Positions 13,015 to 61,460 of a stretch of DNA of 64,000 nt are shown here, piece by piece. The notes under the pieces were generated by a model, which was not told the origin of the DNA, searched no databases, and saw only the letters and a program-made list of their open reading frames with translations. Positions within the stretch are counted from its first letter, which is position 1. Each line of letters begins with the position of its first letter. Source of the stretch: Ostreococcus lucimarinus (lineage: Eukaryota); NCBI GenBank assembly GCA_000092065.1, contig CP000599.1; one strand, given 5' to 3'. Made by a program: the position numbers and the translations under genes.

Positions 13015-13100
13015 ATGCGTCGTCTAAATATCTAATTATATGGCCCTATACCATTCTTAGTACGGTCTCGTACTCGTATTTAAGTATACATACCATCTGT
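13015..13100. promoter_or_regulatory. AT-rich bidirectional promoter island between CBS gene(-) and ARM-repeat gene(+)
   Basis: taaatatctaattatatggccctataccattcttagtacggtctcgtactcgtatttaagtatacataccatctgtatacatagg. Confidence 0.35.
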
Positions 13101-13308
13101 ATACATAGGAGAGCCGTTGCGACGCCCGCGCGGCACACGTCCACGCGCGCCCGCGTCCTCGCGCGGCGCCGGCGCGCGCGCGCGCGGCGCGACCCGATCG
13201 TGTTCGCCCCCGCGCGCGCCCGCATGCGCGCTCGCGCGCTCGAACGCGCCGCGGACGAAGGATTCGACGAATAATCTTTAGAATTTCACATTCGCACTCG
13301 CGCGCGCG

Positions 13309-15375
13309 ATGTCGCGCGACGCGCTCGGAGAACGCTCGACGCGGACGTTGACGGCGTACGGACGTCCGTCGACGTCGCCGCTGGCGGAGAGCGCGAGAGA
13401 ACTGGCGAGGACGACGATGGCGGGACGACTTCGGGACGCGGCGACGACGACGCGACGAGGACGGCGAGACGACGAGGGCGAGGACGAGTACGAGAGCGCG
13501 ACGACGACGAGCGAGACGACGAGCGCGACGGCGAGTTTGATTGGGTCGTCGGTGATCGAATTCGGGCGCGAGCGGGAGGGCGCGAGGAGACTGCGGGGGA
13601 GGGATCGGTTCGGAACGGCGGCGCGGCGCGAACGATTCGAAGAGTCGAAGCGAACGGCGAAGACGCGAGGGACGTTTGACGTGGCGGAGAACGCGAGATT
13701 GGCGCTCGAGGCGAAGGAGGCGCAGTTGCAGAAGATGGCGGCGCGATTGCGAGCGTTGGAGCGCGAGCGGGAGCGGGAGCGCGGGCGTGAGATGGACGAG
13801 GAGCGGGAGACGTTTGCCGACGCGGCGAACGATTTAGAGGGGGAGATGGCGGCGGCGATGGCGAGGTTACGAGGCGACGCTGGCGGCGCGACGACGTCGC
13901 GTCAGCAGACGACGAAGTCGTCGCGCGCGCGCGAGGACGCGGGCACGTTTGCGTTCGCCCCGGATGCTTTCGCGAGTCGCGACGGCGACGACCCCGCGAC
14001 GCCCGAGCTGCCGCGCGGGCGAGGCAAAGCGGAGGAACACGGCGATGACGTCGAGATGACGAAGACGCCGGAGATAAAGCCGATGCACCCACCGCGCGCG
14101 CCACCGTCAGAGCGCTCGGACGCCGAGATTTCGGAGTCGAAGACGCCTGAACCGATCAAACCAGGCGTACGCGTGGACGGCGGATACCTCACGCCGAGCG
14201 GTCGAGTCGTCGGGAGCGCGTTGAAATCGGGTTCGTCGAAGCCGAAGACGCCGAACGAATCCAAGTCCGTCGTATTCACACCCGGAGAGATCGCGCAGTA
14301 CTCGGACGCGGGAACGCCGTTCGACGCGGCCGATGTAGAAGAGTTGCGCGCCGAGCTCCGCGAAGTCAGGGCGGCGCTCAAGAGCGCGTTCAGCGTGAGT
14401 GAAAAACTCGTCGCGCAGTGCGAAAAGAAGAATAGGGAGATCAAGGAAAAGAATACGAGCGTCATGCTCGCGCGCGAGGAGCTGGAGAACGCGCGCGCAG
14501 CGCTCGAGCGAGCGCAAAAAGAAGCGCTAGAGGCGAAGAAGTCCGTCGCCGGCGTCCCGGCGGGCGATCTCGCCGAGGCGTACGAAAAGAGCAAACGTTT
14601 GAATAGCGAACTCTTGCGCGTGATGCGCGCGTCGATCGGGGTGAATGTCGAATTAAGTCCGGACGTTGTGTTCGCAATTCTACCCACGCTCGCGAGCTTA
14701 GCCGTGCGGGGAGACGTCGCCGAGGCCATGGCGCAGGGCGGCGCCTTGGACGCCCTCGCGGGAGCGTTGGATTTGTTCGCGCACGACCCCGCGGTTTGTC
14801 GCAAAGCCATCGCCGCGATCGAATCTATTTGTCGCGCCGGATCTCCCGACGCTAGCGGGGCGACTCAAGACGAAGAGATCATCGCCATTCGCTCGAGATT
14901 GACGAACGAAGCCGTGGACGCGTGCGGCGCCGCCGTGGCGCGATGCGCGTACGATCACGTCGCCGACGCGCGATTGAGCGAAGCCATTTGCGCGCTCGCG
15001 CACGCGTTCGCCGAGATCGGCGATTATGATCGCGTTCAGTTCTTGATTGGACGTGAATGCGCGCTGGTGCAAGCGATTTGCAAGATCTCTAAGACGCACG
15101 AGCACGACGAGCGAACGCAGCGCGCGTCTTCGTTGGCGCTCGCCGCGTTCGCCGCGTGCGACGAGAACACCAAGCGCGTCGTCGAAAGTCTCGGTGGCAT
15201 CGCGCTCATCAAGCGGTGCGTGCAGGAACTCGGAATAGATGACGCGCAGCGCGCGTTTCCGCACGTCAAGCGATGGATTTCCGGGAAGAAGACGCGCGAG
15301 GACAGAGAACGCGGCGCCCGCGGTTTCGACTCGGACGACGGCGAAGCCGACGTCGACGTCACGGGAAATCTATGA
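13309..15375 (+). CDS. hypothetical protein with N-terminal coiled-coil and C-terminal armadillo/HEAT-like repeats
   Basis: ATG at 13309. The N-terminal half is E/R-rich coiled coil. The C-terminal ~250 aa shows repeated helical units (ALDALAGALDLFAHDPAVCRKAIAAIESIC..., ICALAHAFAEIGDYDRVQFLIGRECALVQAIC..., VESLGGIALIKRCVQ) typical of ARM/HEAT folds. Confidence 0.5.
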   Translation: MSRDALGERSTRTLTAYGRPSTSPLAESARELARTTMAGRLRDAATTTRRGRRDDEGEDEYESATTTSETTSATASLIGSSVIEFGREREGARRLRGRDRFGTAARRERFEESKRTAKTRGTFDVAENARLALEAKEAQLQKMAARLRALERERERERGREMDEERETFADAANDLEGEMAAAMARLRGDAGGATTSRQQTTKSSRAREDAGTFAFAPDAFASRDGDDPATPELPRGRGKAEEHGDDVEMTKTPEIKPMHPPRAPPSERSDAEISESKTPEPIKPGVRVDGGYLTPSGRVVGSALKSGSSKPKTPNESKSVVFTPGEIAQYSDAGTPFDAADVEELRAELREVRAALKSAFSVSEKLVAQCEKKNREIKEKNTSVMLAREELENARAALERAQKEALEAKKSVAGVPAGDLAEAYEKSKRLNSELLRVMRASIGVNVELSPDVVFAILPTLASLAVRGDVAEAMAQGGALDALAGALDLFAHDPAVCRKAIAAIESICRAGSPDASGATQDEEIIAIRSRLTNEAVDACGAAVARCAYDHVADARLSEAICALAHAFAEIGDYDRVQFLIGRECALVQAICKISKTHEHDERTQRASSLALAAFAACDENTKRVVESLGGIALIKRCVQELGIDDAQRAFPHVKRWISGKKTREDRERGARGFDSDDGEADVDVTGNL

Positions 15376-15459
15376 TGAATCTTAGTGTTGGCTATTTATA
15401 ATCTAATTTCTACTAGCAGCGATCGAACGAGCGTTTCGCCCGACTCGGCCGCGCCCGCG

Positions 15460-16600
15460 CTAACTCGACGCGTCGTCCGAACGTTTCTCTCGCGCGCCGA
15501 TGAACGCCGACATTTCCACCGCCGCCGTTCGAGTCGGCGACGCGTACGCGTCGTCGTCGTCGTCGTCGTCGTCGTCCATCGTCGCGCGCGTGAGCACGAC
15601 GAACCCATCGCCCGCGGCTCGAGCCCCGCCCTCGTCGTCGCCCTCGTCGTCGTCGCTCGCGAAATCGACGTCGTCCGCGAGATCTCCCAACCCCGTCTGC
15701 GCGTCCTCCGCGCCGACCCCCCGCGCTCGCGCCGAGAGCCGCGCGCACCCGAACGCCGTCGCCAACTCCACCGCCATCTCCCCTCGCGCCGGGTGCGCCA
15801 ACACGAACACGATCGCGTGCACCGCCCCCTGCGACGTCTTACACGCGACGTGCGCGCACGCGAGCCACAGCGCCGGCTTCGCTCGCCCCGCCAGCGTCGA
15901 CGCCCGCAGCGCCGTCCCCGGCACGTTCGTCACCACCTGCGCGATCGGGTACCACGCCAACCGTCGCACGTACGTCCGCAATCGCGCGTGCGCTCGCCGC
16001 GCCGTCGCGTCGTCGCGCCCCAACGTCGCCTCGAGCGCCGCCGCGCTCGCCATCCCGCGACGAATCGCGCGCCAGCAGCGCGCGTTGTAACAAAACGCCG
16101 CCCAAATCGGGACGTAATAAAAAACCAACCGGATTGTCGCCGCGCGCCTCCCCTCCGATTTCACGTGACACCGCCCCAGCCTCGAATCGCCGTACGCGTT
16201 CGCGAGCATCGGCGCGAGCGCCGACGCCGCGCACGCCGTCCACGCGAATCCGTCCTCGCGTCGCGCGTCGCCCCTCGCGCGTCCCGCGCGCAGGCTCTCC
16301 ATCAGCGCCCGCGACACGAGCGCCGCCCACACCGCGCCGGCGACGCCGAACGTCTGTATCAACGCGCCCTGCAAAGCGCAGATCGCGCCGCCGCGCGCGC
16401 CGCGATCGCCGAGCGCGCACGCCGTCGAAAACATCAAATCGCTCAGCGCCAATCGTTTCACGTACGCGTACGTCCTGCCGCGCGTACTGCGCGTCGCGAT
16501 CGCGCCCGCGAGGAGCACGAACGACGCGCCGGCGATCGACGCCGCTGAAGCGACGCGGTTCGTCGCGCGCACGATCGCGCGTTCGTCGGGCGTCCACGAC
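15460..16600 (-). CDS. seven-transmembrane receptor-like protein (GPCR-like) with acidic poly-Asp C-terminal tail
   Basis: I count seven hydrophobic helices from MSWTPDERAIV (ATG at 16600-16598) onward: SIAGASFVLLAGAIA, LALSDLMFSTACALG, ALIQTFGVAGAVWAALV, AWTACAASALAPML, LVFYYVPIWAAFCY, WYPIAQVVTNVPG and LWLACAHVACKTSQGAVHAIVFVL. The track ORF continues upstream (16601-17727) but that part is Arg-rich and overlaps the USP gene, so I exclude it. Confidence 0.5.
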
Positions 16601-16839
16601 ATTGTGGATTGAAAATTCGCGATCCGATGATTCGCGTCGCGATCGCGCGGCGTTCGGTTCGACGCGCGTCTCGATCGTCTCGGAACGTGTTCGCGATCGT
16701 TTACGACGCGTCGACGCGTCGACGCGCGGCGCGCGCGCGGCGCGATCGCGCGATTCGACGCGGGGGCGATCGATCGACGGCGGTGATTCGCGGACGCGAA
16801 CGCGAACCGTCGCGATCGGACACTCGGGTATAGGTATTG

Positions 16840-16910
16840 TGTTTCATATGATAAATATAATGTATAGAACGTGATAGTAATAAAAGGTAGTCGTATATAT
16901 AGGATGCACG
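16840..16910. promoter_or_regulatory. AT-rich bidirectional promoter island between 7TM receptor-like gene(-) and USP(+)
   Basis: gtataggtattgtgtttcatatgataaatataatgtatagaacgtgatagtaataaaaggtagtcgtatatatagg. It shares GTAT(A/G)GGTATTGTGT with the SOD/CCS island. Confidence 0.4.
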
Positions 16911-16956
16911 TCGTGCGCGACGGCCGGCCGCGACGGTTCGCGCGACACGACGACGC

Positions 16957-24394: not shown

Positions 24395-24460
24395 GATGTA
24401 TCATAAACCCTATATTTACGTATTGTACACTTTTTAGTACTATGTAGATGTAGATTTTGG
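24395..24460. promoter_or_regulatory. AT-rich bidirectional promoter island between P-type ATPase(-) and uL3(+), with telo-box-like AAACCCTA
   Basis: atcataaaccctatatttacgtattgtacactttttagtactatgtagatgtagattttgggtaaaacg. AAACCCTA at 24407-24414 lies ~115 bp upstream of the uL3 ATG. Confidence 0.4.
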
Positions 24461-29650: not shown

Positions 29651-29673
29651 TTTAGGGTTTAGGGTTTAGGGTT
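29651..29673. repeat. interstitial plant-type telomeric repeat (TTTAGGG)x3 (telo-box-like)
   Basis: tttagggtttagggtttagggtt lies between MED31 (ends 29526) and the next plus-strand gene (ATG at 29711). The second and third copies also contain AAACCCTAA in reverse complement. Confidence 0.9.
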
Positions 29674-29710
29674 CGCCGCGCGTCGACGCCGCACACGCCG
29701 ACGCGGCGCC

Positions 29711-30430: not shown

Positions 30431-30672
30431 TCGAGCGCCGTCCATCGTAAAAAATGTATTAGCGCGCTTGTAACGCCGGCGCACGCTAGCTCGAACCGCG
30501 CGCTTCGATCGCGCGTCCCGTCCCGCGTCCCGAGCGCGTCCCGAGCGCGTCCCCGTCCCGCACACCTCGACGTCTCGCGACGCCGCCGCGACGCGTCGCG
30601 CCGCGACGACGCCGACGTCGACGACGCGCGCGCCGAGCGTCGCGAGACGCGCGAACCGCGCGATCGCGCGCG

Positions 30673-40671: not shown

Positions 40672-41739
<1,068 letters not shown>

Positions 41740-42759: not shown

Positions 42760-42900
42760 ACGTATATTTCGTAGAAATATACTTTATATTCGGAAACATG
42801 TCGTATGGGTATTGTGTCTGTGGTTATAATTGGTAGTATCCGAATATTCGGACACACGGCGTATGCGTATTGTGTATATACACATAATTGGTAAAAGTCC
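42760..42900. promoter_or_regulatory. AT-rich bidirectional promoter island between divergent Cu/Zn-SOD and CCS genes; contains a ~60-bp tandem duplication
   Basis: The units tattcggaaacatgtcgtatgggtattgtgtctgtggttataattggtagtatccga and tattcggacacacggcgtatgcgtattgtgtatatacacataattggtaaaagtccga form a local AT-rich island in ~70% GC surroundings. Confidence 0.45.
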
Positions 42901-43070: not shown

Positions 43071-44033
43071 ATGATTCCGTCGACGCCGCGCCTTCGCGCC
43101 GCCGCGCCGCGTCGCGTCGTCGACCGCGCGTCGCGATCGCGAACGCGGTCGCGATGCCGACGCGCGCTCGAACGCGCCGACGCGCGGACGAAAGACCTCG
43201 AGCGGGCGTTGGAATTCATGGTGGAGATGCGGTGCGGAGGGTGCGCGGCTAAGGTGACGACGGCGTGCGAGGCGCTCGCGGGCACGACGCGCGTCGACGC
43301 GTCGCTCGGGACGAACACGGTGACGGTGATCACGCGCGATGCGGAGCGAACGGTCAGGGAGGCGATCGAGAGCGCCGGGTATAAGGCGCGATTGATCGGG
43401 CAGGGGCGCGCGGAGCGAAGCGCCGAAGACGACGACGATTTCGGCGAGGCGCTGGCGGAGGCGCTGGGCACGGACGTGCGGACGCTGCGACAGAGCCTGG
43501 CGGCGGTGGCGGAGTTTAAGGGGAAGGCGTACGGGCACGGTGAGGCGCGAGGGACGGTGCGGCTGGTGCAGGTGAGCGAGGAGACGATATTGGCGGAGGC
43601 GGCGCTGGACGGGTTGAGTCCGGGGGCGCACGCGATTCGCGTGCACGAATACGGGGATTTGACGCGCGGGATGGATTCGATCGGGGACGTGTACGGGGGG
43701 GAGGGAGGGGCGGGGATGATCGGGATCGTCGTCGCGGACGAGAATGGGTCGGCGACGATGCCGTCGACGATGTTGAGCTCGGAGCTCAAGGCGTGGGACG
43801 TCATCGGTCGAAGCGTCGCCGTGTACGCCGCCGCGGACGGCGATACGACCGGCGCGGTGTGCGCCGTGCTCGCTCGAAGCGCGGGCGTGGGGGCGAATCA
43901 TAAAAAGTTGTGCCAGTGCGATGGGACGATCATCTGGGAGGCGGGCGAAGATTTCTTGCCCCGCGCGGTGGACGAATGCGACGCCGCGAGACCGCTGCTC
44001 GGCAAAGGAATCACCACCGCTCGGCGCGGGTGA
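43071..44033 (+). CDS. CCS: copper chaperone for superoxide dismutase (CCS)
   Basis: Three-domain CCS layout: an Atx1-like HMA domain with the [10 protein letters not shown] metal-binding MxCxxC; a SOD1-like domain ([25 protein letters not shown]); and a C-terminal CxC motif (KKLCQCDG). ATG at 43071. Confidence 0.75.
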
Positions 44034-44121
44034 GAATAGCGCGCGTGTAATGATGATTGCGATGATTGATTGATTGATGAATTGATGCTTAAAAAGGACG
44101 TTATCGTTGAGATTGTTATAT

Positions 44122-46803
44122 TCACTTGATCTTGATGAGCGAAGGGAGCTTGACGCCGTCGATGGCGCGTTTCGCCTCGGCCCACGTCTTCGTCGTTCGC
44201 GGCGGCGGAGTCGGCGGCGGCGGCGGCGCGAAAGGTCTCGGCCGCGGTATCACCATCGTCGACTTCTTCGGCGGCGCCGCGGGCACGCTGGACGATGGCT
44301 GGTTTTCTTCGTGCGTCTTGCTCGACGGCGGCGCCGCGAGCGCCGGCGAATCGTTCGTCTTCAACGCCGGGAATTCCTTCAATCGCGACTCTCGATCGAC
44401 GGCGCTTTCGGCGTCGCTCGAGGGGGTCGCGGACTCGGACGTCGATTGCGATGCGACTTTCGGCTTGGGTGGAAAATCCGGTAGCGCGGACAGCCCCGTC
44501 GGCGGCGGAGGCGGAGGCGGAGGCGGAGGCGGCGCGGCGGCGGCGACGGCGGTCGATCTCGGCGCCGGGATGCGCGCCGGCGGCTTTCCACTCGGCAACG
44601 GCGGCGGATTCGGTGGCAGCGGCGGTGGATTCGGCATCGTCGCGACGGTTGGTCTTCGAGGCGCATCCATTTCCTTCGCGAACGTCGGTCGCGGCGGCGT
44701 GTTGGGCTTCCTTCGCGATCGCGCCGCCGTCCACTCGCCGCCCGAATCCGAATTCGCCGCGTCTTCGAGCGTCGGTTCGGGGGTCTTCGATCGCGGCGTC
44801 GTCGGCGCTTCGGGTTCGTCCTCGGCGTCGTCAGCGACGGTGATTTCATCGCGCTCGACGTCGCGCGCGACTTTCGTCAGCGCTCGCTTCGCCTTGGACG
44901 ACGAAGATTTCCGTTTCTTCTTCGAAGACGCGCCGCCGGCGGATCTCTTAGAGTTGGCGTCGCCGCCGCGGAGAACATCGTCGTCATCTTCGAACGCCTT
45001 GAGCGCAGCTTCCAAACGCGCGTCGTCCAGTGCTTTAACGTGCTCTTTGACCGCACCGCTCACGACTTTCACGAACGTCGCGCACTTTGCGAGTTCGATG
45101 CCGTACGCCAAGTGCGCGCCCTCAAGATTGAGCGCTCGAACGACGCGGTCGACGACGCCGTCGAGGGCGGTGGATTTGTACCTGTCCATCACGGGTTGGA
45201 TTCTTCGATGCAAACCTTCGACATCGTAATTTGTCGACGTCGCGCCGGCGTTCGTGGAGGAAGCGCCGCCGCTCGCGGCGGAAGTGATGGCTCGAAACGA
45301 GCGCTTTAAATCCCGCATGACGTCTCGCAGGATGACTTTGACGTCGAGCGCACGATCGGCGTACGCCTTGTCGACAACGCGCGACGAATCACCGTCACAC
45401 GAGTTCAACGCTCGCGTCGCCAGCACGCATTCTTTGGCGTGGCGCTCGATCTCTTTCGCGCTCGGTGCCGCGACGGCGAAAGAATTCCTCGCGTGATCCA
45501 AATGCTTATTCAGCACGATTTCCAGCGCCTTGGAATCCCCGGGCGGCGTCACGTGCTTGTAACACATTTCGTTCTCGCGAAGATAAAACCGCGTGCGCTT
45601 CTCGGCCAGACGGAATTCTTCCACACCCAGCTCGAGCGCCGCGGTGACGTCGCGAAATTCGCACCAGGCGCCGAGCGCGCGCGTCAAGAGCTCACGTCGC
45701 TGAATCGCGAGCAAATCCGCGTTGTCGTCGCGCACGAGCTCGGCTAGCTCAAGCATCGCTCGTTCGGCGTCGCGCTGCTCGGCGAGCCAAGACTTGACGA
45801 GGTTATGAACGCTTTCAGAAGTTTCGTCGTCCATGCGCCTGACGACGTCGAGATCGTGCGCTTGTTTAGCTTCATCCAATCCGCCCGAGGCGTCGACGAG
45901 CGGCGGCGCGGGCGCGTCGACGCTCGTGTCGAACTCGCGATCACCGAGCGTCGCCCGCGAATCGCGACGTTTGCTTCGAATCGTCGCGAATCGATGTAAA
46001 CACTCGAATCCTCGGCGCACCCAACGCTCGACGTCGACGTCGTCGCGTAAACCGATGGAATCCTCGCCGCGACGCGCGTAATCGCGCGCGTCTTCGTCTT
46101 TGACCAAATCCTCGTTCGCGCGACGCGGACGTCGCGCGTCGTCGTCGTCGTCGTCGCCACCGCCGACCGCGTCGACGACCGCACCGCCGCTTTCATCGAC
46201 CGCGAGCGCGCGCAACGTCTCCATCGCCGCCGCGAGCGCGTCCGAAGCGTCCGTCCCGCGTCGCCCCGTCGCCGTCGTCTGCGCGCCTCGACGCCCCCCC
46301 GACCCCGACCCCGACCGTCCCATCGTCCCCATCGACGCCTCCGCGCCCACCGCGCGTTCGATCGCGCGTTCGATCGCGCGCACCGACGCCGCCGCGCGTC
46401 TCCCGCGCGCGCCCACCCGTCTCGCCACCGCGCGCGCGTCCTCCTCCGCGTCTCCCTCCCCGTCCACCAGCATCGCCGCGAACGCCCCCCGCGCCGCGTC
46501 ATCGTCCCGCAGCATCGCTCGCAGCGTTCGATCGAGCGCGCGTCGCGCCCTCGATCGCGCGTCGTCGTCGTCGCGCGCCGTCGCGCGCGCCATCGCGGAA
46601 GACGAACCGTCCCTTCGATCGCCGTCCCTTCGCGCGCGTTCGTTCGACGCGCGTCGTCCGTCCTCGCGCGGTCGACGCGCGCCGCGCGCGCGTCCGTCGT
46701 CGTCGTCGCGCGCCGCGTCCGTCGCGCGCCCTCGATCGCGCGTCGCGCGTCGCGATGTCGCGCGTCGTCGTCGCGCGTTGACCCGCGCGTTGACCGTCGC
46801 CAT
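44122..46803 (-). CDS. hypothetical large protein with C-terminal proline-rich (poly-Pro, FH1-like) region
   Basis: 893-aa ORF. The middle region is helical and non-repetitive. The C-terminal 250 aa carry [34 protein letters not shown] and [12 protein letters not shown] tracts. No family assigned. Confidence 0.45.
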
Positions 46804-46804: not shown

Positions 46805-46985
46805 GTCGACGTCGCCCTATATATAATACGACGCGAAACCTCATATAATCCTCATCACGACACCCAACAGTCACACACACGTATGTCTCTCATCATTACT
46901 AAGTACCTTACGACTATATATACATATACCGTATGTCCGATATATGTTTATAGGTATCCGTGTACGTATATTAGTAAAATAACGT
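46805..46985. promoter_or_regulatory. AT-rich bidirectional promoter island between the divergent 44122-46803(-) gene and AGPase(+)
   Basis: ~180 bp at roughly 35-40% GC containing tatatata and gtatgt motifs and the 13-mer ccgtatgtccgat, which is also found in the 61360-61460 island. Confidence 0.4.
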
Positions 46986-47415
46986 CGAGCATTCGACCGA
47001 CGTTCCTGAGCCAGTCGTTACGCGCGCCATTTTCCGCCGCGTCGCGAATCGCCGATGCGCGCCGCGTCCCTCGCGCAGCGCGCCGCGCTCGCGCCTCGCC
47101 GCGTCGACGCCGAGCAAAGGTGCGCGCGCGACGCCCGCGCGACCGCGACGCCCGATCGACCGCGAACGCGAACGCGCGAGACGATCGCGTCGCGACGGAC
47201 GGATCTCGACGAGACGCGCGACGGATCGACGCGAACAGCGCGCGACGACGCGCGCGAGCCGCGAGAGACGCCGGATTCAAACGCGTCTCGCGCGTCGTCG
47301 GCGTCGCGCGACGGATCGACGCGCGCGCGGCGCGAGGGCGGCTCGGGACGCGCGACGCGGGACGGAGGATAAGACGAGACGCGAGAGAGACGACGAGCGG
47401 ACGCGAGACTGACGG

Positions 47416-52766: not shown

Positions 52767-53582
52767 ATGGTCAAGTTGTGCGTCGACAGCCCCGCGCTCG
52801 ACGTGGACGCGGCGACGCTCTGGCGAGCGCGCACGACGTCGCTCTTCATGACGTGCGAACGCGCGGTATTTGGTGATTTAGAGAGATCCGTCGTGTTATA
52901 CGAACGGTGTAGACACGATGAAAACCGCGCGCGGTGCGTGATACGAACGAAACTCGACGCGAAGCTGCCGTACATGGCGAGACGGGCGCTCGGGGTGAAG
53001 TCGTCGCGAGACGCCGTGGTGATGTACGACGACGTCACCCTCGAAGAGACGCAGAGCACGGGGCCGTATCTGTTCGAAGCGTCGTCGCGGACGTACGGGA
53101 CGTTTTTAAATCCCGAAAATAGCGTGTTGAAAGGGACGGTGCTGTGTAAATCAGTCGACGACGGTTCTATGTTGAGCGTGCGGTTGGAGTGCGCGGTGAA
53201 AATGACGGGCATCGGGAGCGCGATCGAGCGAACGATCGTCAGCGGCATGAAGACGAAGTTTGCGCTGTATCCGAAAGTCATCGAGCTTTACAAGGCTAAA
53301 CTGCGAGAGAATGAGGCCAAACGGCGAGAGAGAGACGAAGAGAGAGCGGCGAAGGCGAGCATCGACGCGTGCGCCGACGCGTGCGAATTTCACTCCGCGC
53401 GCGATTCGGATAGCGAACGGGACGACGTCGCGCCATCACTCGCTGACGATAGAGTCGCCGACGCGAAAAAAGGCGACGCGACGAGTCCAATCGCGACGGG
53501 ATGTTGCGTCCCCGCGTCGCGTCGCCGCTCGCGCTCGTCAAATTCAAACTCAAACGCCGCTCCCGTCAAAAGAATCCCATAG
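52767..53582 (+). CDS. hypothetical protein (weak resemblance to PRELI/MSF1-like fold)
   Basis: ORF with coding-like composition and an ATG at 52767. The first ~180 aa have mixed beta/alpha character; the C-terminus is a K/E/R-rich helix. The family assignment is speculative. Confidence 0.35.
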   Translation: MVKLCVDSPALDVDAATLWRARTTSLFMTCERAVFGDLERSVVLYERCRHDENRARCVIRTKLDAKLPYMARRALGVKSSRDAVVMYDDVTLEETQSTGPYLFEASSRTYGTFLNPENSVLKGTVLCKSVDDGSMLSVRLECAVKMTGIGSAIERTIVSGMKTKFALYPKVIELYKAKLRENEAKRRERDEERAAKASIDACADACEFHSARDSDSERDDVAPSLADDRVADAKKGDATSPIATGCCVPASRRRSRSSNSNSNAAPVKRIP

Positions 53583-54318
53583 CCGCCACTTTTGATTTCA
53601 CCCTGCCAAACTTTTTAAGCTTGAACGGCTCTTTATCGACGACTTTCGCGATTTTCGCGTCGTTCGACGACGCCGGCCGCGCTTCATCGCGACTCGTCGC
53701 CGCGCTCGCTCGCGCCGCGGCGCGTTCGGCCACTTTTGCCCGGACCCAATCCTGCGAGTAATCCCCTCGAATCAACGCCGCGATCGACTGCGATCGCGGC
53801 GCGTAGCCTTCAGCGTAACGTATTTCCTCGGCGTAACGCGTTTCGGACGGTCGCCCGTACGTCGCGTTCGCGTCCACGCGCGGAGGTTCCGCGCGCACCT
53901 CGCCCGACTTGAGCAAAATAGGTTCGGCGAGCGTCCTGAACCGCCGCACCTCCGCCGAGTTCACGCACTTGTTCTGCGTCGCTTTCTTATTCATCGCCAT
54001 TAAATCCAATCCGCCCTTGTAAGAGACTTTGTTCGTCGACGACGACGCGCTGAATTCGCGCCACGCGAGCGCGTCTCGCGCGCTCAAAGTCTCGCGCGCC
54101 GGTCCGCCGCCGAACGTCGCATCGCGCGCGCGCGCCGGCGCGAATATCAGGTGCTCGCGCGCGCGCCCGACTTCTTTATTGGTGTTTATCAACGCGTTCG
54201 TCGCGATCGACGCGCGGTCGAAGCCGATGCGAGCGTCCATCGCGCGCTGCGCGATGTGAAGACTCGCCAAAAATAGTCTCTCGCCGCGCGTCGTCGATCG
54301 ATCCATCGATCCATCCAT
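53566..54318 (-). CDS. hypothetical protein
   Basis: 250-aa ORF with a non-repetitive sequence and a basic C-terminus (FKLKKFGRVKSKV). No family recognised. Confidence 0.35.
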   Translation of the reverse strand: MDGSMDRSTTRGERLFLASLHIAQRAMDARIGFDRASIATNALINTNKEVGRAREHLIFAPARARDATFGGGPARETLSARDALAWREFSASSSTNKVSYKGGLDLMAMNKKATQNKCVNSAEVRRFRTLAEPILLKSGEVRAEPPRVDANATYGRPSETRYAEEIRYAEGYAPRSQSIAALIRGDYSQDWVRAKVAERAAARASAATSRDEARPASSNDAKIAKVVDKEPFKLKKFGRVKSKVAAMGFF

Positions 54319-55380: not shown

Positions 55381-55580
55381 TGGTGTGCGGCGTCGGCGGC
55401 GCGCGCGGGTGACATAGAGTGTTAGGGGTGCGCACTACGACGTTTGGTATCGTATATTGATCGATATTCGTCCTTCGACGCGCGTTCGCGCGCGCGTATC
55501 TGCGCTCGACTCGGCGTCGCGCAACACCTTCCCCCCGCGCGCGCGCGCGCGCGACGGCGCGACGCGACCGACGACGCGCG

Positions 55581-55656: not shown

Positions 55657-56940
55657 ATGGCGACGCGCGAAGGCGGCGCGAAGAAGAATCGCGGCGCGAG
55701 AATCGCGAAACCCTCGATCGACGCGACGATCGTCGGTGGCGCGTGCGTCGTCGCGCTCGCGGGACGCGCGCGCGCGGTGCTCGCGGGAGACGTCCCGTCG
55801 GGGGGCGGCTCGGCCGTGGACGGGTACTTCAACTCCGAGAGCACGCTGAAGAGCGCGGTGGACGCGTGCTGGAGCTCGTCGACGACGGTGAACGCGGCGT
55901 GCGCGGACGGCGCGGTCGGCATCGCGGATTGGAACGTCGGCGACGTGACGAGCATGCGTGACATGTTCTCCGAAAAGGAGGGCTTTAACGCCGACTTGAG
56001 TCGTTGGAACACGAAGTCGGTGACGACCATGAGTGCCATGTTCAACGGCGCGACGAGCTTCAACGGCGACATGCCGAACTGGAACGTCGAGAAGGTGACG
56101 CACATGACTCACATGTTCCGAGACGCGACGAGCTTCAACGGCGACATGCCGAACTGGAACGTCGAGGCGGTGACGAACATGGCTCAAGTGTTCTCCGGCG
56201 CGACGAGCTTCAACGGCGACATCTCGAACTGGAACCCGAAGGCGGTGACGGGCATGTATCGCACGTTCTACGGCGCGACGAGCTTCAACGGCGACATCTC
56301 GAACTGGAACGTCGAGGCGGTGAAGGACATGAGTCAAGTGTTCAACGGCGCGACGAGCTTCAACGGCGACATCTCGAACTGGAACGTCGAGGCGGTGACG
56401 AGCATGCGTGACATGTTCTACGGCGCGACGAACTTCAACGGCGACATCTCAAACTGGAACCCGAAGGCGGTGAAGGACATGAATCAAATGTTCCGAGACG
56501 CGACGAGCTTCAACGGCGACATCTCCGCGTGGAACATCCAAGCCGTTACGGACATGTCTAACATGTTCAACAACGCGCGGGCTTTCGCGCGAGACATCAC
56601 GGGCTGGAACGCGGCGGCGATCGCCGCCGCGCGCGACGCCACCAAAGTTTCCGGCATGTTCAAGAACGCCACGGCGTGGCGCGCGATCTACACCAACACG
56701 CAGACGTCTTACTTTTCGGCGAACGACGGCCCGCCGCATTTGTGGACCGCCGGCGCCGCCGCTCCCGGCGCCGGCGCCGCCGCTCCCGGCGCCTCCGTCG
56801 CAGACTTCCCCGAGTGGGGCGTCGCCCTCGTCGCCCTCTCGCTCGCGCTCTCCACGATCACGTCCATCGTCGTCATCGCGCGCGCGCTGTGCGCGCCCAA
56901 GATTCTCGTTCCCGCCGCGCGGTGGTCCGCGCGCGTCTGA
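55657..56940 (+). CDS. DUF285/BspA-like repeat surface protein with C-terminal transmembrane anchor
   Basis: Nine tandem 25-aa repeats with consensus F.GATSFNGDISNWNVEAVT.M..MF, nearly identical at DNA level (75-nt period, e.g. ggcgcgacgagcttcaacggcgacatctcgaactggaac). This is the repeat type of the 'Mycoplasma protein of unknown function' (DUF285) / BspA-like families. A C-terminal hydrophobic helix follows (VALVALSLALSTITSIVVIARAL). ATG at 55657. Confidence 0.7.
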   Translation: MATREGGAKKNRGARIAKPSIDATIVGGACVVALAGRARAVLAGDVPSGGGSAVDGYFNSESTLKSAVDACWSSSTTVNAACADGAVGIADWNVGDVTSMRDMFSEKEGFNADLSRWNTKSVTTMSAMFNGATSFNGDMPNWNVEKVTHMTHMFRDATSFNGDMPNWNVEAVTNMAQVFSGATSFNGDISNWNPKAVTGMYRTFYGATSFNGDISNWNVEAVKDMSQVFNGATSFNGDISNWNVEAVTSMRDMFYGATNFNGDISNWNPKAVKDMNQMFRDATSFNGDISAWNIQAVTDMSNMFNNARAFARDITGWNAAAIAAARDATKVSGMFKNATAWRAIYTNTQTSYFSANDGPPHLWTAGAAAPGAGAAAPGASVADFPEWGVALVALSLALSTITSIVVIARALCAPKILVPAARWSARV

Positions 56941-57131: not shown

Positions 57132-57369
57132 AATGACGCGAATCGCGCATCAGATACCGCATTCACGCGCTCTAACGCGTACATCTCAACCCTGATCCGC
57201 GCGATAAATGACGCGAATCGCGCATCAGATACCGCATTCACGCGCTCTAACGCGTACATCTCAACCCTGATCCGCGCGATAAATGACGCGAATCGCGCAT
57301 CAGATACCGCATTCACGCGCTCTAACGCGTACATCTCAACCCTGATCCGCGCGATAAATGACGCGAATC
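57132..57369. repeat. 75-bp tandem repeat x3.2 in the 5' region of the MiaB-like gene
   Basis: The unit aatgacgcgaatcgcgcatcagataccgcattcacgcgctctaacgcgtacatctcaaccctgatccgcgcgata starts at 57132, 57207, 57282 and, truncated, 57357. The copies are essentially identical. Confidence 0.9.
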
Positions 57370-57498: not shown

Positions 57499-59328
57499 AT
57501 GGCGACGCCGCGCGCGGCGGCGGCGGCGGTGGCGGCGCGACCGTCGACGCCGCGCCGACGCGCGCGCGCGCGCGCGGGCGACGGGCGACACCTCGACGCG
57601 ACGGCGGACGCGGTGCGCGCGGCGGGCGTCGCGGCGCGGCGCGCGGCGCCGCGAACGGGACGCGCGGAGGACGGGGAGGAGGACGCGCGGGGGCGACGCG
57701 CGGTGTACGTGGAGACGTACGGGTGCCAGATGAACGTGAACGACTCGGAGGTGATGATGGCGGTGCTCGAGGGCGCGGGGTACGACGAGACGAAGGAGGT
57801 GAACGACGCGGACGTGATTCTGATCAACACGTGCGCGATTCGGGATAAGGCGGAGGCGAAAATTTGGCAGCGGTTGGCGTACTTTCGATCGCTGGGGAAC
57901 GGGAAGAAACGGAGCGAAAAGCCGGTGGTGGGCGTGCTGGGATGCATGGCGGAGAGGATCAAGGAGAAGTTGTTGGAGGCGGATAGGCTGGCGGACATCG
58001 TGGCGGGACCGGACGCGTATAGGGATTTGCCGAATCTCATCGACGCCGTCGTCGGGAATCCGGGAGGGAAGGCGATGAACGTGCAGTTGAGCGTGGAGGA
58101 GACGTACGCGGACATCATTCCCGTGCGCGAGGCGGGGTCGCACTCGGCTTTTGTCACCATCATGCGCGGGTGCGACAACGCGTGCGCGTTTTGCATCGTG
58201 CCGTACACGCGCGGACGCGAGCGCTCGCGCGATTTGGCGAGCATCATGTACGAGATTCGTCTTTTGAGCGAACAAGGGGTGAAAGAGGTCACTTTGCTCG
58301 GGCAAAACGTGAACTCGTACGCGGGAGAGCCCGCGAGCGCGACGACGACGGATTTCTTGAGCTCACTGCGAGGCGAATCCAAAGACCCGATCGCCGAGCT
58401 CGCGAACGCGTCGACGGAACGTTTGGCGAGCGCGAGCGGTAGCGCGTTCGTCGGCTACGCCGATGGCTTCGCGAGTCGGTACGATCCCGAGCGCAAGCGA
58501 GCGGGGACGATTCAATTCGCCGAGTTGCTCGATAAAGTCGCGAGCGTGGATCCCGAGATGCGCATTCGTTTCACGTCGCCGCACCCGAAGGATTTCCCCG
58601 ACGACGTCTTGCGAGTGATTCGCGATCGACCCAACGTGTCGAAGTGCTTGCACATGCCCGCGCAGAGCGGGTCGTCGGCTACCTTGGAGCGCATGGCGCG
58701 TGGGTACACGCGCGAGTCTTACTTTGCCCTCATCGATCGCGTCAAGGCGATGATTCCGGGGTGCGCCATCACCACGGATATCATCAGCGGCTTTTGCGGC
58801 GAGACCGAGGACGATCACGAGGACACCGTGAGTTTGATGAGCGCGATCGGATACGAACAAGCGTTCATGTTCGCTTACAGCGAACGCGAGGGCACGGCGG
58901 GGCAAAGACACCAAATCGACGACGTCCCCGAAGACGTGAAGCAGCGGCGTCTGCAGGAAGTCATCGACGCCTTTCGAGCGCGCGCGGCGGAGAAGCAACA
59001 GATGGAGATCGGTTCCACGCATTGCGTGTTGGTGGAGGGTCCGAGTAAGAAAAACTCCGACGAGTGGACGGGGAAGACGGACACATCGAAGTGGGTGGTG
59101 TTCGAAAAGAATGATGCCATCGGCAAGTACGCCGGCGACGAAGACGCGCCGACGAGCGGGTCGTACGGCGTCAAGCCTGGAGATTACGTCGCCGTTCGCG
59201 TCACTGGGTGCAGTACGGGGACGTTATTTGGTCAAGTTCTCGGTAAGACGAGTTTGGTAGAGTTTCAAAACTTGCACGGCGCGCAGTGGACGACGCCAAA
59301 GTCGAGCAACGGCGCGAGCGCGCGTTGA
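57499..59328 (+). CDS. radical-SAM tRNA methylthiotransferase, MiaB/CDK5RAP1 family, organelle-targeted
   Basis: Collinear with MiaB: MTTase N-terminal domain (VYVETYGCQMNVNDSEVM...LINTCAIRDKAE), radical-SAM CxxxCxxC (MRGCDNACAFCIVP), TRAM domain at the C-terminus. A/R-rich presequence. ATG at 57499. TGTAA 9 nt after the stop. Confidence 0.85.
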   Translation: MATPRAAAAAVAARPSTPRRRARARAGDGRHLDATADAVRAAGVAARRAAPRTGRAEDGEEDARGRRAVYVETYGCQMNVNDSEVMMAVLEGAGYDETKEVNDADVILINTCAIRDKAEAKIWQRLAYFRSLGNGKKRSEKPVVGVLGCMAERIKEKLLEADRLADIVAGPDAYRDLPNLIDAVVGNPGGKAMNVQLSVEETYADIIPVREAGSHSAFVTIMRGCDNACAFCIVPYTRGRERSRDLASIMYEIRLLSEQGVKEVTLLGQNVNSYAGEPASATTTDFLSSLRGESKDPIAELANASTERLASASGSAFVGYADGFASRYDPERKRAGTIQFAELLDKVASVDPEMRIRFTSPHPKDFPDDVLRVIRDRPNVSKCLHMPAQSGSSATLERMARGYTRESYFALIDRVKAMIPGCAITTDIISGFCGETEDDHEDTVSLMSAIGYEQAFMFAYSEREGTAGQRHQIDDVPEDVKQRRLQEVIDAFRARAAEKQQMEIGSTHCVLVEGPSKKNSDEWTGKTDTSKWVVFEKNDAIGKYAGDEDAPTSGSYGVKPGDYVAVRVTGCSTGTLFGQVLGKTSLVEFQNLHGAQWTTPKSSNGASAR

Positions 59329-59366
59329 CGCGAGCGATGTAAAATTACACACAATCTAATCATTAT

Positions 59367-61283
59367 TCATCTTTCGTCGACGACCGATTCTTCTTCCGCT
59401 TCATCCTTCGCCCGCACGTATCGTCTCTTCAAGCCGAGCGCCAACGCGACGTCTTCCGCGACGTCTTCTGCTCGAGTGTCCACGACGCACGTGACGTAAA
59501 ACGGTCCCTCCTGCCCCGTGCGCGCCGTGCGTCCGCATCGGTGCACGTGCATCTCCATGGACGGCGCCGCGCCGTACTGCACGACGTGATGTAATTGCGG
59601 AAAATCGATTCCACGCGCCGCGAGATCGGTGCACACGCACGTGGTGAGCTCACCGGAGATGAAATCGTCGAGGACGACGCCGCGCTCCTTCGCCTTGCCG
59701 TGAAACGCGAGCGCGACGACGTCGCGCTCGTCGAGTTTTTGCACGACTTCATCCGCCTCTTCGGGAGAGTTGACGAAGATGAGCGTTTTGTACTGTTTGT
59801 GCCGTTCGAGCGCGTCGGCCAAGGCGGCGAATTTCGCCTCGGCACCGTCGACGTCGTCCACGCGCGTCTTGAGCTGCGGATGCACGCGACCGAATTGCGC
59901 CGTCGAGATCCACTCGAATTCGTCCGCCGCTTCCGCCGGAAATGCGTCGAGCAGAGGCTGCGCCTCGCGCATCGTAGCCGCGGCGAAAACGTACTGCACG
60001 CGCGCGTCGAATCGATTGACCCCACCCTCGCCGTACGTCGCGGCGATGATACCGCCGACGTCGCGAGCGAAACCGCTCGACAACATTTCATCCGCCTCGT
60101 CCACGACGACGTGACGCAAACGACCGAGCAACACCCACTCGTCTTTGATGAGTTTCAGCAAGCGCGCGGGCGTGCACACGAGGATATCGGCGTTGCGAAA
60201 TTCCGGAATCGCCTCCTCGTCTCCCGCGAGCTTCGACTTGTCCGCCGACGTGGATTTCGTCTTTTTCGCTTTGCCCGTCTTGGCGCCGCCCTTGGATTTC
60301 GGTCTCACCAACTTCTTCTCCTTCCCGAGCAGCGCGAACACGCTCGGCGTCGGCACGTCCGCGCTCGCGCTGCTCCAATACGCCGCGAGTTCGGCGGCGT
60401 GCGCGACCTGTCTCCCCAGCTCCACGCTCGGCGTCAACGCGACGCACGCGGGACAACATCGTCCGCTTCGCTTCGTCCCTTTCCTCCCCGGCGTCGTCAT
60501 CGACGCCAATATCGGCAGCAGGTACGCGAACGTCTTCCCCGACCCCGTCTCCGCGAGCAACACCGCGGACTTCCCCCGAACGAGCTCCGGAATCGCCAAT
60601 CGCTGAATCTCCGTCGTCCGCCGCAACCCGGCGTCTCGCGCGTTCGCCGCCAATCCCGCCGGCAATCCCGCCCTCTCGAGCGCGTTCGCCCCCCCCGAAT
60701 CCCCATTCGCGCCCTCTCGCGCCTCTCTCTCCGCGCGCCGCGCGTCCCTCGCCCTTCTCGCCGCCTCCCACGGCCGTTCCGTCCCTCGCTTATACGCCGT
60801 CGCCGCCTTTCCCGAATCCGCCCTCGTCGTCTCCGACCCCCCGTCTCGCCGTCGAATCCTCCCATCCACCGCCCGCGCGTCGACGTCCTCCCCCATCATT
60901 CGCGCCCATCCGCTCAGGCCCTCGTCCTCGCCCCAGTACGCGTCTCGCGCGCGCGTCGCGTCGCCTCTTCTCGTCGCGTCGCGTCGTCGCGTCGCCCTCG
61001 CGAGCGCCGCCGCGCTCGCCGCGCGAAATCCCGCCTCGTCGTCGTCGTCGTCGCTTCGGCGCGCGTTTGAGTCGCGCGTCAATCGCGCGTATTTCGCGTC
61101 GTTCGTCGACGCCCACGAGCGCGCGCGCGGCCGTCGCGCGTCGAGGGCGTCGTCGCCGTCGCGCGTCGAGCCGGCGGCGGCGACGACTCGTCGCGTCGTG
61201 TTCGCGTCCGCGCGCCGCGACGCGACGGGAAAACGACGCGACGACGCGACGGGCGTCGCGCGCGGCGCGAATCGCGCGGGCAT
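59367..61283 (-). CDS. DEAD-box ATP-dependent RNA helicase
   Basis: Motif I AETGSGKT, Ia, II VVDEADEM, III, V ARGID and VI HRCGRTAR are all present. Q-motif region upstream. ~230-aa low-complexity N-terminal extension. Confidence 0.8.
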   Translation of the reverse strand: MPARFAPRATPVASSRRFPVASRRADANTTRRVVAAAGSTRDGDDALDARRPRARSWASTNDAKYARLTRDSNARRSDDDDDEAGFRAASAAALARATRRRDATRRGDATRARDAYWGEDEGLSGWARMMGEDVDARAVDGRIRRRDGGSETTRADSGKAATAYKRGTERPWEAARRARDARRAEREAREGANGDSGGANALERAGLPAGLAANARDAGLRRTTEIQRLAIPELVRGKSAVLLAETGSGKTFAYLLPILASMTTPGRKGTKRSGRCCPACVALTPSVELGRQVAHAAELAAYWSSASADVPTPSVFALLGKEKKLVRPKSKGGAKTGKAKKTKSTSADKSKLAGDEEAIPEFRNADILVCTPARLLKLIKDEWVLLGRLRHVVVDEADEMLSSGFARDVGGIIAATYGEGGVNRFDARVQYVFAAATMREAQPLLDAFPAEAADEFEWISTAQFGRVHPQLKTRVDDVDGAEAKFAALADALERHKQYKTLIFVNSPEEADEVVQKLDERDVVALAFHGKAKERGVVLDDFISGELTTCVCTDLAARGIDFPQLHHVVQYGAAPSMEMHVHRCGRTARTGQEGPFYVTCVVDTRAEDVAEDVALALGLKRRYVRAKDEAEEESVVDER

Positions 61284-61359
61284 CGCGCGCTCGACGCGCG
61301 CGCGGGAGCGCGGTCGCGAGGTCGGCGCGGCGCGCGACCGATTCGATGCGATACTCCAT

Positions 61360-61460
61360 CATGGGGTTAAAATATATTTATATATGTACTGGTTCGTCTA
61401 TGGGTTTGTGTGTATTTATATATGTACCGTATGTCCGATGTGTATATTTATGTATAGACG
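61360..61460. promoter_or_regulatory. AT-rich bidirectional promoter island between DEAD-box helicase(-) and bL19(+)
   Basis: ggggttaaaatatatttatatatgtactggttcgtctatgggtttgtgtgtatttatatatgtaccgtatgtccgatgtgtatatttatgtatagacg contains ccgtatgtccgat. Confidence 0.4.

What the first reader, a model, noticed from the sequence alone, without database searches (positions are those of the whole stretch)
13015..61460. Recurrent AT-rich islands with shared motifs mark head-to-head gene pairs
In DNA that is otherwise ~70% GC, discrete 60-180-bp AT-rich islands occur at 13015-13100, 16840-16910, 24395-24460, 42760-42900, 46805-46985, 55415-55475 and 61360-61460. Each sits exactly between two divergently transcribed genes. 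Gene starts lie only 65-600 bp apart; SNAP and the pentapeptide gene are 65 bp apart. The islands share sequence blocks. GTAT(G/A)GGTATTGTGT occurs at 16846 and 42800, with GTATGCGTATTGTGT at 42862. The 13-mer CCGTATGTCCGAT occurs at both 46929 and 61428, each followed by (AT/GT)(AT/GT)T.T.TAT. The motifs recur at unrelated loci. They could therefore be a conserved core-promoter or insulator element of this genome, or remnants of a small dispersed element that seeds promoters.
Basis: seen in the sequence. Interest (0 to 1): 0.7.

Follow-up and report, generated by a model that had tools for sequence, protein, structure and literature searches.

The report
Shared promoter motif in Ostreococcus gene gaps

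Summary
The window is Ostreococcus lucimarinus-type nuclear DNA, 64% GC rather than 70%. The seven AT-rich islands exist and each lies in a divergent gene gap. AT-rich dips are not specific to such gaps, however. Convergent gaps have them just as strongly, where they carry TGTAA poly(A) signals, and some tandem gaps have them too. Three of the ten divergent gaps have none.

The two "shared motifs" are real. They are two halves, in opposite orientations, of one composite element: (C)ATAC-N0-4-CCG-N-R-TGTCCGA-W, usually followed within 3-6 nt by a TATA-like TATWTTTAT. TGTCCGA is the top enriched 7-mer among the 23 islands (z = 11).

The element sits at orthologous gaps in sister Ostreococcus species and at other gaps in O. 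tauri and two further species. It is often locally duplicated in tandem. It is absent from the syntenic Micromonas loci. No extended homology, TIRs or Rfam match were found.

Best reading: a genus-specific, promoter-proximal transcription-factor site inside shared AT-rich promoter regions. The bias towards divergent gaps is only suggestive. The finding is moderately interesting; the bound factor and the transcription start sites are unknown.

The parts
46915..46958 (+). Composite element instance in the unk27(-)|AGPase(+) gap: ATATACCGTATGTCCGAT followed by ATATGTTTATAGG (TATA-like). An opposing TATATATAC lies on its left. Core TCGGACATACGG is at 46929-46940 on the minus strand.
   Evidence: (27.5 bits, E=2.6e-7). 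The orthologous copy in L001/L002 aligns through to the AGPase ATG.
61414..61455 (+). Composite element instance in the DEAD(-)|plastid RPL19(+) gap: TGTACCGTATGTCCGAT followed by GTGTATATTTATGTATAG. Core is at 61427-61438 on the minus strand. The real RPL19 ATG is at 61631.
   Evidence: (27.9 bits, E=1.9e-7). The ortholog is kept in L142. O. tauri has two copies in the same gap in the opposite orientation.
42836..42875 (-). Composite element instance (copy B) in the Cu/Zn-SOD(-)|CCS(+) gap. The plus strand reads TTCGGACACACGGCGTATGCGTATTGTGT. It is preceded by the 14-nt palindrome TCCGAATATTCGGA.
   Evidence: (20.8 bits). It is conserved in strains and in L001/L002/L079.
42786..42843 (-). Decayed tandem copy A of the same 58-bp unit (ATATTCGGAAACATGTCGTATGGGTATTGTGT...ATAATTGGTA). 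Copy A is intact (TTCGGACACACGG) in strains L048/L128, where a 135-bp indel separates the two copies.
   Evidence: copy A vs copy B score 51, above all 500 shuffles; 8.5 bits.
16802..16842 (-). Composite element instance in the unk9(-)|Usp(+) gap. The plus strand reads ATCGGACACTCGGGTATAGGTATTGTGT, at the boundary between the GC-rich leader and the AT-rich island.
   Evidence: (19.5 bits). Present in strains L070/L071.
2553..2585 (+). It points towards that gene.
   Evidence: (17.2 bits).
13015..13100 (.). AT-rich island in the CBS(-)|unk8(+) divergent gap. No TGTCCGA element. It carries TATAGGG.
24395..24460 (.). AT-rich island in the P-ATPase(-)|RPL3(+) divergent gap. No TGTCCGA element. It carries a telo-box AAACCCTA and TATAGGG.
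55415..55475 (.). Marginal AT dip (GC 0.44) in the RING(-)|DUF285(+) gap. No element.

Best explanation
The AT-rich islands are the non-coding spacers of a very compact, GC-rich Ostreococcus genome. Those in divergent and tandem gaps are promoter regions with TATA-like boxes. Those in convergent and tandem gaps hold 3' ends with TGTAA poly(A) signals.

A subset of the promoter islands holds one composite cis-regulatory element, (C)ATAC-N0-4-CCG-N-R-TGTCCGA-W. It is about 22-25 bp long, and the TGTCCGAW unit is sometimes repeated 1.5-2.5 times with an 8-bp period. In most cases a TATA-like sequence follows 3-6 nt downstream.

The most likely mechanism, which is inferred and not shown, is this. 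A sequence-specific DNA-binding factor, or a pair of factors, recognises the element inside the nucleosome-poor AT-rich promoter core. From there it activates or positions transcription of the adjacent gene. The preferred target is the gene towards which TGTCCGA->TATA points, and in divergent gaps possibly both genes.

Shown here: the motif is statistically real, confined to non-coding gaps, conserved across Ostreococcus species, absent from syntenic Micromonas loci, and turns over by local tandem duplication and decay.

Inferred: factor binding, the effect on transcription, and directionality.
For: 1. Organism and compactness. Several window proteins match O. lucimarinus CCE9901 proteins exactly. 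There are 40 genes in 64 kb and 12% of the window is intergenic. The literature reports intergenic regions of about 200 bp or less (PMC2850359, PMC10662239).
2. Statistical reality. TCGGACAYNCGG occurs 5 times against 0.22 expected, reached by 0 of 100 shuffles, and all five copies are in gaps. TGTCCGA is the most enriched 7-mer across the 23 islands, in 5 islands against 0.2 expected, z=11.
4. A sequence-only model searched over 228 kb gave 18 hits. All are non-coding and none is in the Micromonas loci.
5. Orthologous conservation. Both the SOD|CCS and the unk27|AGPase sites are kept in the L001/L002 species, where coding DNA is about 78% identical. The DEAD|RPL19 site is kept in L142 and the same gap in O. 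tauri carries copies.
6. The same module occurs at other loci and in other species. L144 RING|MiaB has CCGTATGTCCGAACTGTATTTTTATG, against CCGTATGTCCGATGTGTATATTTATG in the window. O. tauri u430|PseudoU has two copies. The metagenome loci X1, X2 and L065 also carry it.
7. A TATA-like box follows within 3-6 nt in about 7 of 10 instances, and at 46927 and 61425 the element lies between opposing TATA-like boxes.
8. In all three tandem-gap instances the element points at the downstream gene's start.
9. Within the population, one copy of a duplicated pair decays while the other stays intact.
Against: - No transcription start sites, expression data or binding data were available, so function is inferred from position and conservation only.
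- The L001/L002 species is close enough that its whole promoter aligns. Conservation there is therefore weak evidence of constraint.
- In O. tauri the unk27|AGPase gap has neither an island nor a motif. In the DEAD|RPL19 gap the orientation is flipped. That shows turnover rather than strict conservation.
- The distance from element to ATG varies from 39 to about 240 nt, and a downstream TATA is missing in some copies (16817, X1).
- The flanking genes share no obvious function.
- A conserved block of 22-25 bp is long for a single transcription-factor site.
- The divergent-gap preference is not robust once orthologous gaps are counted once.
Confidence: 0.6

Rival explanations
1. The shared blocks are remnants of a small dispersed or self-duplicating DNA module, either a MITE-like element or a 'promoter cassette'. 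It spread among intergenic regions and seeded AT-rich promoters. On this view the conservation reflects common descent rather than factor binding.
For: - The islands at 46927 and 61425 share about 45 bp, including an exact 15-mer.
- Near-identical modules occur at different loci in different species.
- Promoter modules duplicate locally: 58 bp at SOD|CCS, 143 bp in L001/L002, 97 bp in O. tauri, and a 135-bp indel between strains.
- The motif-bearing islands share an unusual alternating purine-pyrimidine composition.
- The island and motif are absent from the orthologous O. tauri unk27|AGPase gap and from Micromonas.
Against: - No terminal inverted repeats, target-site duplications or homology beyond 25-45 bp were found.
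- Copies differ by indels outside the core, whereas the core is invariant. That is the pattern of selection on a short site, not of decaying repeats.
- The element persists across species whose silent sites are heavily diverged (O. tauri against O. lucimarinus).
- The duplications seen are local and tandem, not transpositions.
Confidence: 0.15
2. The element acts at the transcription start site or in the RNA. It could be an initiator-like or 5'-leader element, since its ATG (CCGTATGTCCGAT reads M-S-D) could open a short upstream ORF. Alternatively it could be the promoter of an unannotated small RNA.
For: - In locus X1 and at 16817 the element sits exactly at the boundary between the AT-rich region and the GC-rich leader, about 10 nt after a TATA-like box.
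- At 46927 and 61425 the ATG opens 6- and 8-codon ORFs that end in TAG (read directly from the sequence).
Against: - Many copies have GTG instead of ATG (16817, 42849, X2, O. tauri 13335), so an upstream ORF is not conserved.
- In most copies the TATA-like box lies downstream of the element, not upstream.
- There is no Rfam family at gathering score and no tRNA in these islands.
- No compensatory structure is evident.
Confidence: 0.1
3. The element is structural or chromosomal rather than transcriptional. It could be a sequence-defined replication-origin or ORC-type site, or a Z-DNA or nucleosome-excluding tract that absorbs the negative supercoiling between divergent genes.
For: - Alternating purine-pyrimidine runs cover 17-39% of the motif-bearing islands against about 3% in shuffles.
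- The spacing of one site per roughly 13-20 kb resembles origin spacing in compact yeast genomes (my inference).
Against: - No evidence bears on replication.
- The invariant non-alternating core TGTCCGA argues for protein recognition of a specific sequence.
- The close association with TATA-like boxes and gene starts fits transcription better.
Confidence: 0.05
4. The similarity is a chance or compositional artefact of low-complexity AT-rich DNA.
For: - Exact 13-mers shared somewhere in 64 kb are expected by chance.
- At up to 3 mismatches the 15-mer is not enriched over whole-window shuffles.
Against: all reject chance. In addition, independent species carry the same element.
Confidence: 0.02

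Closest known systems
Short AT-rich intergenic promoter and terminator regions of Mamiellophyceae (Ostreococcus) genomes, with TATA-like boxes and the green-algal TGTAA poly(A) signal
   Same: The islands are 60-200 bp AT-rich spacers between GC3-rich genes. The 3' islands are enriched in TGTAAA placed 10-200 nt after stop codons. Published intergenic sizes are about 200 bp or less (PMC2850359, PMC10662239). TGTAA as the algal poly(A) signal is from my own knowledge.
   Different: Nothing differs. This part of the finding is ordinary.
Described Ostreococcus cis-elements: evening element/CCA1 site GATATTT, MYB sites GGATAG and CGATTC, E2F GTTCCCC, bHLH CCACGTGG (PMC10662239), and the phylogenetic footprints of Piganeau et al. 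2009 (cited in PMC2850359; paper not readable here)
   Same: These are short promoter motifs in roughly 200-bp upstream regions, studied by over-representation and cross-species conservation.
   Different: The sequence ...CCG-N-RTGTCCGAW matches none of the listed motifs, and it is longer (about 22-25 bp, composite). I could not check whether the 2009 footprint set already contains it.
Sites for yeast general regulatory factors (Reb1 TTACCCG, Abf1, Rap1) in nucleosome-depleted regions of compact, often bidirectional promoters
   Same: Both are specific motifs present in a minority (about 10%) of promoters, embedded in AT-rich nucleosome-poor cores and often between divergent genes. The upstream half, ATACCCG, resembles the Reb1 site TTACCCG. 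This resemblance is recalled from memory and was not tested.
   Different: The lineage is different, and no binding protein, nucleosome data or barrier function is known here. This is an analogy only.
TFIIB recognition element (BREu), which abuts the upstream edge of the TATA box
   Same: The position is similar: TGTCCGAW ends 3-6 nt upstream of a TATA-like sequence in most copies.
   Different: The sequence is unrelated to the SSRCGCC consensus. The element is present in only a subset of promoters, and some copies lack a downstream TATA.
MITEs and other small dispersed repeats that donate promoters
   Same: Both are short, dispersed, intergenic, lineage-restricted and associated with local duplications.
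   Different: There are no TIRs or target-site duplications, no extended homology, and an invariant short core.

Membership tests
Sequence-specific promoter-proximal cis-regulatory element (transcription-factor binding site) | Over-represented relative to composition-matched background | tested here: met
   (5 copies against 0.22 expected). (z=11, the top 7-mer)..
Sequence-specific promoter-proximal cis-regulatory element (transcription-factor binding site) | Restricted to non-coding regions upstream of genes | tested here: met
   All 18 model hits in 228 kb are non-coding and lie in divergent or tandem (promoter-containing) gaps, never in a purely convergent gap.
Sequence-specific promoter-proximal cis-regulatory element (transcription-factor binding site) | Conserved at orthologous promoters across species | tested here: inconclusive
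   Kept in the L001/L002/L142 species at three gaps. Partly kept in L004. Present in the O. tauri DEAD|RPL19 gap but flipped in orientation. Absent from the O. tauri unk27|AGPase gap.
Sequence-specific promoter-proximal cis-regulatory element (transcription-factor binding site) | Bound by a protein and needed for normal transcription | not testable with these tools
   Needs DAP-seq, EMSA or reporter mutagenesis.
Element specific to bidirectional (head-to-head) promoters | Enriched in divergent gaps relative to tandem-gap promoters | tested here: inconclusive
   8 of 9 motif-bearing gaps are divergent. Fisher p=0.0015 against tandem gaps, but orthologous gaps are counted repeatedly. By promoter share p is about 0.05. 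Three tandem-gap instances exist.
General core-promoter element (TATA, Inr or BRE class) | Present in a large share of promoters at a fixed distance from the transcription start site | tested here: not met
   Only 5 of about 28 promoter-containing gaps in the window carry it. The distance to the ATG ranges from 39 to about 240 nt. Transcription start sites are unknown.
MITE / small dispersed transposable element | Terminal inverted repeats, target-site duplication, and copies homologous over the whole element (about 100-600 bp) | tested here: not met
   Alignments of the copies with 70 bp of flank on each side share only the core and adjacent TA/GT-rich bases. The longest pairwise similarity is about 45 bp.
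Insulator / boundary element | Blocks cross-talk between neighbouring transcription units | not testable with these tools
   A functional assay is required.
Known structured RNA or tRNA gene located in the islands | Match to an Rfam covariance model or a tRNA model | tested here: not met
   No Rfam hits at gathering threshold in the window. The two ARAGORN predictions lie outside the islands.

The most novel reading that the evidence does not exclude
The composite element could be the recognition site of an Ostreococcus-specific 'architectural' factor, analogous to the yeast general regulatory factors. It would set up the nucleosome-free AT-rich core of shared or bidirectional promoters. New promoters would arise when the small module (motif plus TATA) is duplicated locally and possibly moved between loci. 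In that case it would be a self-propagating promoter cassette in one of the most compact eukaryotic genomes.
Probability: 0.12. Interest if true: 0.6.

Novelty: new member of a known kind. Interest (0 to 1): 0.38.

Why it matters
Ostreococcus is a minimal, genetically tractable model phototroph with very few transcription factors and promoters of about 200 bp. A long, genus-conserved motif that sits beside the TATA box in roughly one promoter gap in eight is a concrete handle on how such compact promoters are organised. Many of these promoters are shared between divergent genes. The motif can be tested directly by reporter mutagenesis in O. tauri and by DAP-seq. The AT-rich islands themselves are ordinary and need no special explanation.

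Tried and rejected
- Treating the two motifs as separate elements. Rejected: the reverse complement of CCGTATGTCCGAT is ATCGGACATACGG, which aligns with the ATCGGACACTCGG that precedes motif 1.
- AT islands as markers of divergent pairs. Rejected by classifying all 39 gaps and by the TGTAA-type 3' islands.
- Pilot scan of viral contigs. It gave 16 hits, all chance matches in phage families.
- Metagenome scan. About 30 hits were Ostreococcus-like and the rest were bacterial chance hits.
- Functional theme among the flanking genes (plastid-targeted, metal-related). Rejected: the neighbours include a forkhead-like protein, an FF-domain protein, a CREG/DUF2470 protein, a DEAD helicase and Usp.
- Copper-response GTAC sites in the SOD|CCS island. 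None are present.
- Equating the element with DRE, ARF, HSE or the Pol III B-box. The sequences do not fit (comparison from memory).
- Upstream-ORF idea. Rejected because of the GTG variants.
- A rough coding mask on unannotated loci was too poor to use.
- A fuzzy-regex anchor search timed out.
- Literature searches for the motif string and for Ostreococcus promoter motifs found no description of it. The key 2009 footprinting paper is not held.
Full report
**What the window is.** Six of eight long ORFs are exact matches to proteins in the public collection. One of them is O. lucimarinus CCE9901 XP_001422371, and the SNAP cluster contains XP_001422423. The window is therefore nuclear DNA of Ostreococcus lucimarinus or a near-identical strain. 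Overall GC is 64.2%. A codon-score ORF map plus Pfam gives about 40 genes, with 12% of the sequence intergenic. The genes include:
- an ammonium transporter, SNAP and a pentapeptide protein;
- a P-type ATPase, RPL3, Cu/Zn-SOD and its copper chaperone CCS;
- ADP-glucose pyrophosphorylase (AGPase), MiaB, a DEAD helicase, plastid RPL19 and Skp1.

Published work describes Ostreococcus intergenic regions as below or around 200 bp (PMC2850359, PMC10662239).

**Check of the islands.** All seven intervals are AT-rich (GC 0.28-0.44) and each lies between a minus-strand gene and a plus-strand gene. The list is selective, though. A 60-bp scan finds 47 dips below 45% GC, of which I placed 23 in intergenic gaps.

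| Gap class | Median minimum 60-bp GC |
|---|---|
| Divergent | 0.31 |
| Convergent | 0.37 |
| Tandem | 0.45 |

- Strong islands also sit at convergent gaps: 4569-4701, 15342-15445, 44026-44160 and 59314-59412.
- Three of the ten divergent gaps have no island, including SNAP|pentapeptide.
- The start codons of SNAP and the pentapeptide gene are 223 bp apart, not 65.
- The 3'-type islands are enriched in TGTAAA and TTTGTGA, placed 10-200 nt after stop codons on the sense strand. This is the green-algal TGTAA poly(A) signal, by my own knowledge.

AT-rich islands are thus generic spacers, holding promoters or terminators. They are not marks of head-to-head pairs.

**Check of the motifs.** The motifs are present with small coordinate offsets.
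- Motif 1 has 4 matches at up to 3 mismatches against 0.14 expected.
- The motif 2 match is an exact 15-mer, which arises in 1.3% of island shuffles.
- Pairwise local alignments exceed all 500 shuffles for 46927 against 61425 (about 45 bp), 16817 against 42849 (28 bp) and the two copies within 42786-42901 (58-bp unit).

**The two motifs are one element.**
- The reverse complement of CCGTATGTCCGAT is ATCGGACATACGG. The same block, ATCGGACACTCGG or TTCGGACACACGG, directly precedes motif 1 at 16816 and 42848.
- The joint core TCGGACAYNCGG occurs five times in the window against 0.22 expected. No shuffle out of 100 reached five.
- All five copies are in non-coding gaps.
- In an unbiased k-mer test over the 23 islands, TGTCCGA/TCGGACA ranks first: 5 islands against 0.2 expected, z=11.
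- Sixteen instances aligned give the consensus (C)ATAC-N0-4-CCG-N-R-TGTCCGA-W.
- In about 7 of 10 copies a TATA-like TATWTTTAT follows within 3-6 nt. At 46927 and 61425 the element lies between two opposing TATA-like boxes.
- The TGTCCGAW unit can repeat with an 8-bp period, as in locus X1 (CCGAATGTCCGAATGTCCGAAC) and L099-1357.

**Related sequences.**
- *CCS homologues.* These led to syntenic loci.
  - In the L001/L002 species (CCS 85% identical, unk27 5' coding DNA about 78%), the SOD|CCS gap keeps TTCGGACATGCGGTATATGTGTATTGTGT.
  - In the same species the unk27|AGPase gap keeps ACATATACCACATGTCCGACC...TTTATAG inside a 143-bp tandem duplication.
  - A more distant species, L004, keeps only GTATGGGTATTG at SOD|CCS. 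It has another copy upstream of a neighbouring transporter gene.
- *RPL19 homologues.* These gave 20-kb annotated loci.
  - L142 keeps the DEAD|RPL19 copy.
  - O. tauri has two copies in that gap in the opposite orientation, and two more in a 97-bp tandem duplication in the u430|PseudoU gap.
  - L144 has CCGTATGTCCGAACTGTATTTTTATG in its RING|MiaB gap, nearly identical to the window's 61425 module.
  - Two syntenic Micromonas loci have no copy in a promoter gap and much weaker AT dips.
It still returned the window's sites in many strains and at least four other Ostreococcus-like loci: X1, X2, L065 and a second site in L099. The viral pilot scan gave only chance hits.
- *Sequence model.* Model R1 searched over 228 kb found 18 hits, all non-coding.
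- *Strain alignments.* Copy A at SOD|CCS is intact in some strains and decayed in the window's lineage, and a 135-bp indel separates the copies.

**Position and orientation.**
- Of nine motif-bearing gaps in annotated sequence, eight are divergent. Fisher p is 9e-5 against all other gaps and 0.0015 against tandem gaps.
- Orthologous gaps are counted more than once in that test. Against the share of promoters that lie in divergent gaps, p is only about 0.05.
- All three instances in tandem gaps point, in the TGTCCGA->TATA direction, at the start of the downstream gene.
- Distances to the ATG range from 39 to about 240 nt.

**Interpretation.** The best-supported reading is a genus-specific, promoter-proximal cis-regulatory element bound by an unknown factor. 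It sits in the AT-rich core of promoters that are often shared by divergent genes, and it turns over by local duplication and decay.
- A mobile-element origin is not supported structurally but cannot be excluded.
- Start-site, upstream-ORF or small-RNA readings are weakened by the GTG variants, by the downstream position of the TATA-like box, and by the lack of Rfam or tRNA hits.
- Chance is excluded.
- The neighbouring genes share no clear function.
- None of the Ostreococcus motifs I could find in the literature matches it: GATATTT, GGATAG, CGATTC, GTTCCCC, CCACGTGG.
- The 2009 footprinting study could not be read, so prior description cannot be ruled out.

**Verdict.** The islands are ordinary. 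The motif is a real and apparently undescribed member of a known kind of feature, a promoter cis-element. Interest is moderate.

Noticed in passing
window 57132-57369: A perfect (100% match) 75-bp tandem repeat with 3.2 copies lies in the DUF285|MiaB gap and runs into the MiaB start codon at 57358. Each unit carries GACGCGAATCGCG. This looks like a very recent duplication of a promoter segment.
   Followed up: partly
window 29659-29680; 24406; L144 9605-9640; L003 ~3665: Telomere-type repeats (telo-boxes) occur in promoters. (TTTAGGG)3 lies upstream of the ZPR1-like gene. AAACCCTA is in the RPL3 promoter island. Two AAACCCTAA copies lie upstream of RPL19 in L144. GGGTTTAGGGTTT lies upstream of CCS in O. 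tauri. This resembles the plant telo-box of ribosomal-protein genes.
   Followed up: partly
window 4628, 27496, 29044, 48925, 59338, 62694 (+); 34619, 17821 (-): TGTAAA sits 10-200 nt downstream of stop codons on the sense strand, and TTTGTGA(T) recurs in the 3' islands. These are the likely poly(A) signals and explain the AT-rich dips at convergent gaps.
   Followed up: partly
window 2445-2643, 12996-13125, 16799-16923, 42722-42905, 46812-47020, 61328-61480: The motif-bearing promoter islands, plus 12996, are rich in alternating purine-pyrimidine runs (TA/TG/CA). These cover 15-39% of their length against about 3% in shuffles. Most 3' islands are not enriched.
   Followed up: no
window 3152, 24365, 40633, 57135/57210/57285: The 13-mer GACGCGAATCGCG recurs in GC-rich parts of four regions, three of them intergenic. 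It contains CGATTC, reported as a MYB-type blue-light motif in Ostreococcus RCC809 (PMC10662239).
   Followed up: no
window 41593-41921 vs L001 1253-2119, L002 1207-2370, L004 1569-2720: Related strains and species carry a Gly_transporter (PF03458) gene between the 2Fe-2S and SOD genes. The window has only a 329-bp gap there, so this is a gene presence/absence difference.
   Followed up: no
window 30489-30570 (-); 16575-16672 (+): ARAGORN predicts tRNA-Pro(CGG) in the ZPR1-like|CAF17 tandem gap. It also predicts a long tRNA-Phe(GAA) that overlaps the likely start of gene unk9. Neither was verified, and Rfam at gathering threshold reports no tRNA.
   Followed up: no
L003 7375-7535 (O. tauri): The divergent unk27|AGPase gap of O. 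tauri is GC-rich throughout, with no AT island and no motif. The neighbouring convergent gap keeps its AT island. A strong AT island is therefore not required for a divergent promoter in this genus.
   Followed up: partly
window 53566-54318 (-): This ORF matches Pfam CFAP77, a cilia- and flagella-associated protein (E=1.6e-15), although Ostreococcus is regarded as non-flagellate. It is conserved in syntenic Ostreococcus loci.
   Followed up: no
window 10584-10780; 56005-56584: There are coding tandem repeats. A 33-bp unit repeats 6 times (97% matches) inside the 1849-aa SAP-domain gene. The DUF285 gene has 75/225-bp repeats that encode its DUF285 repeats.
   Followed up: no
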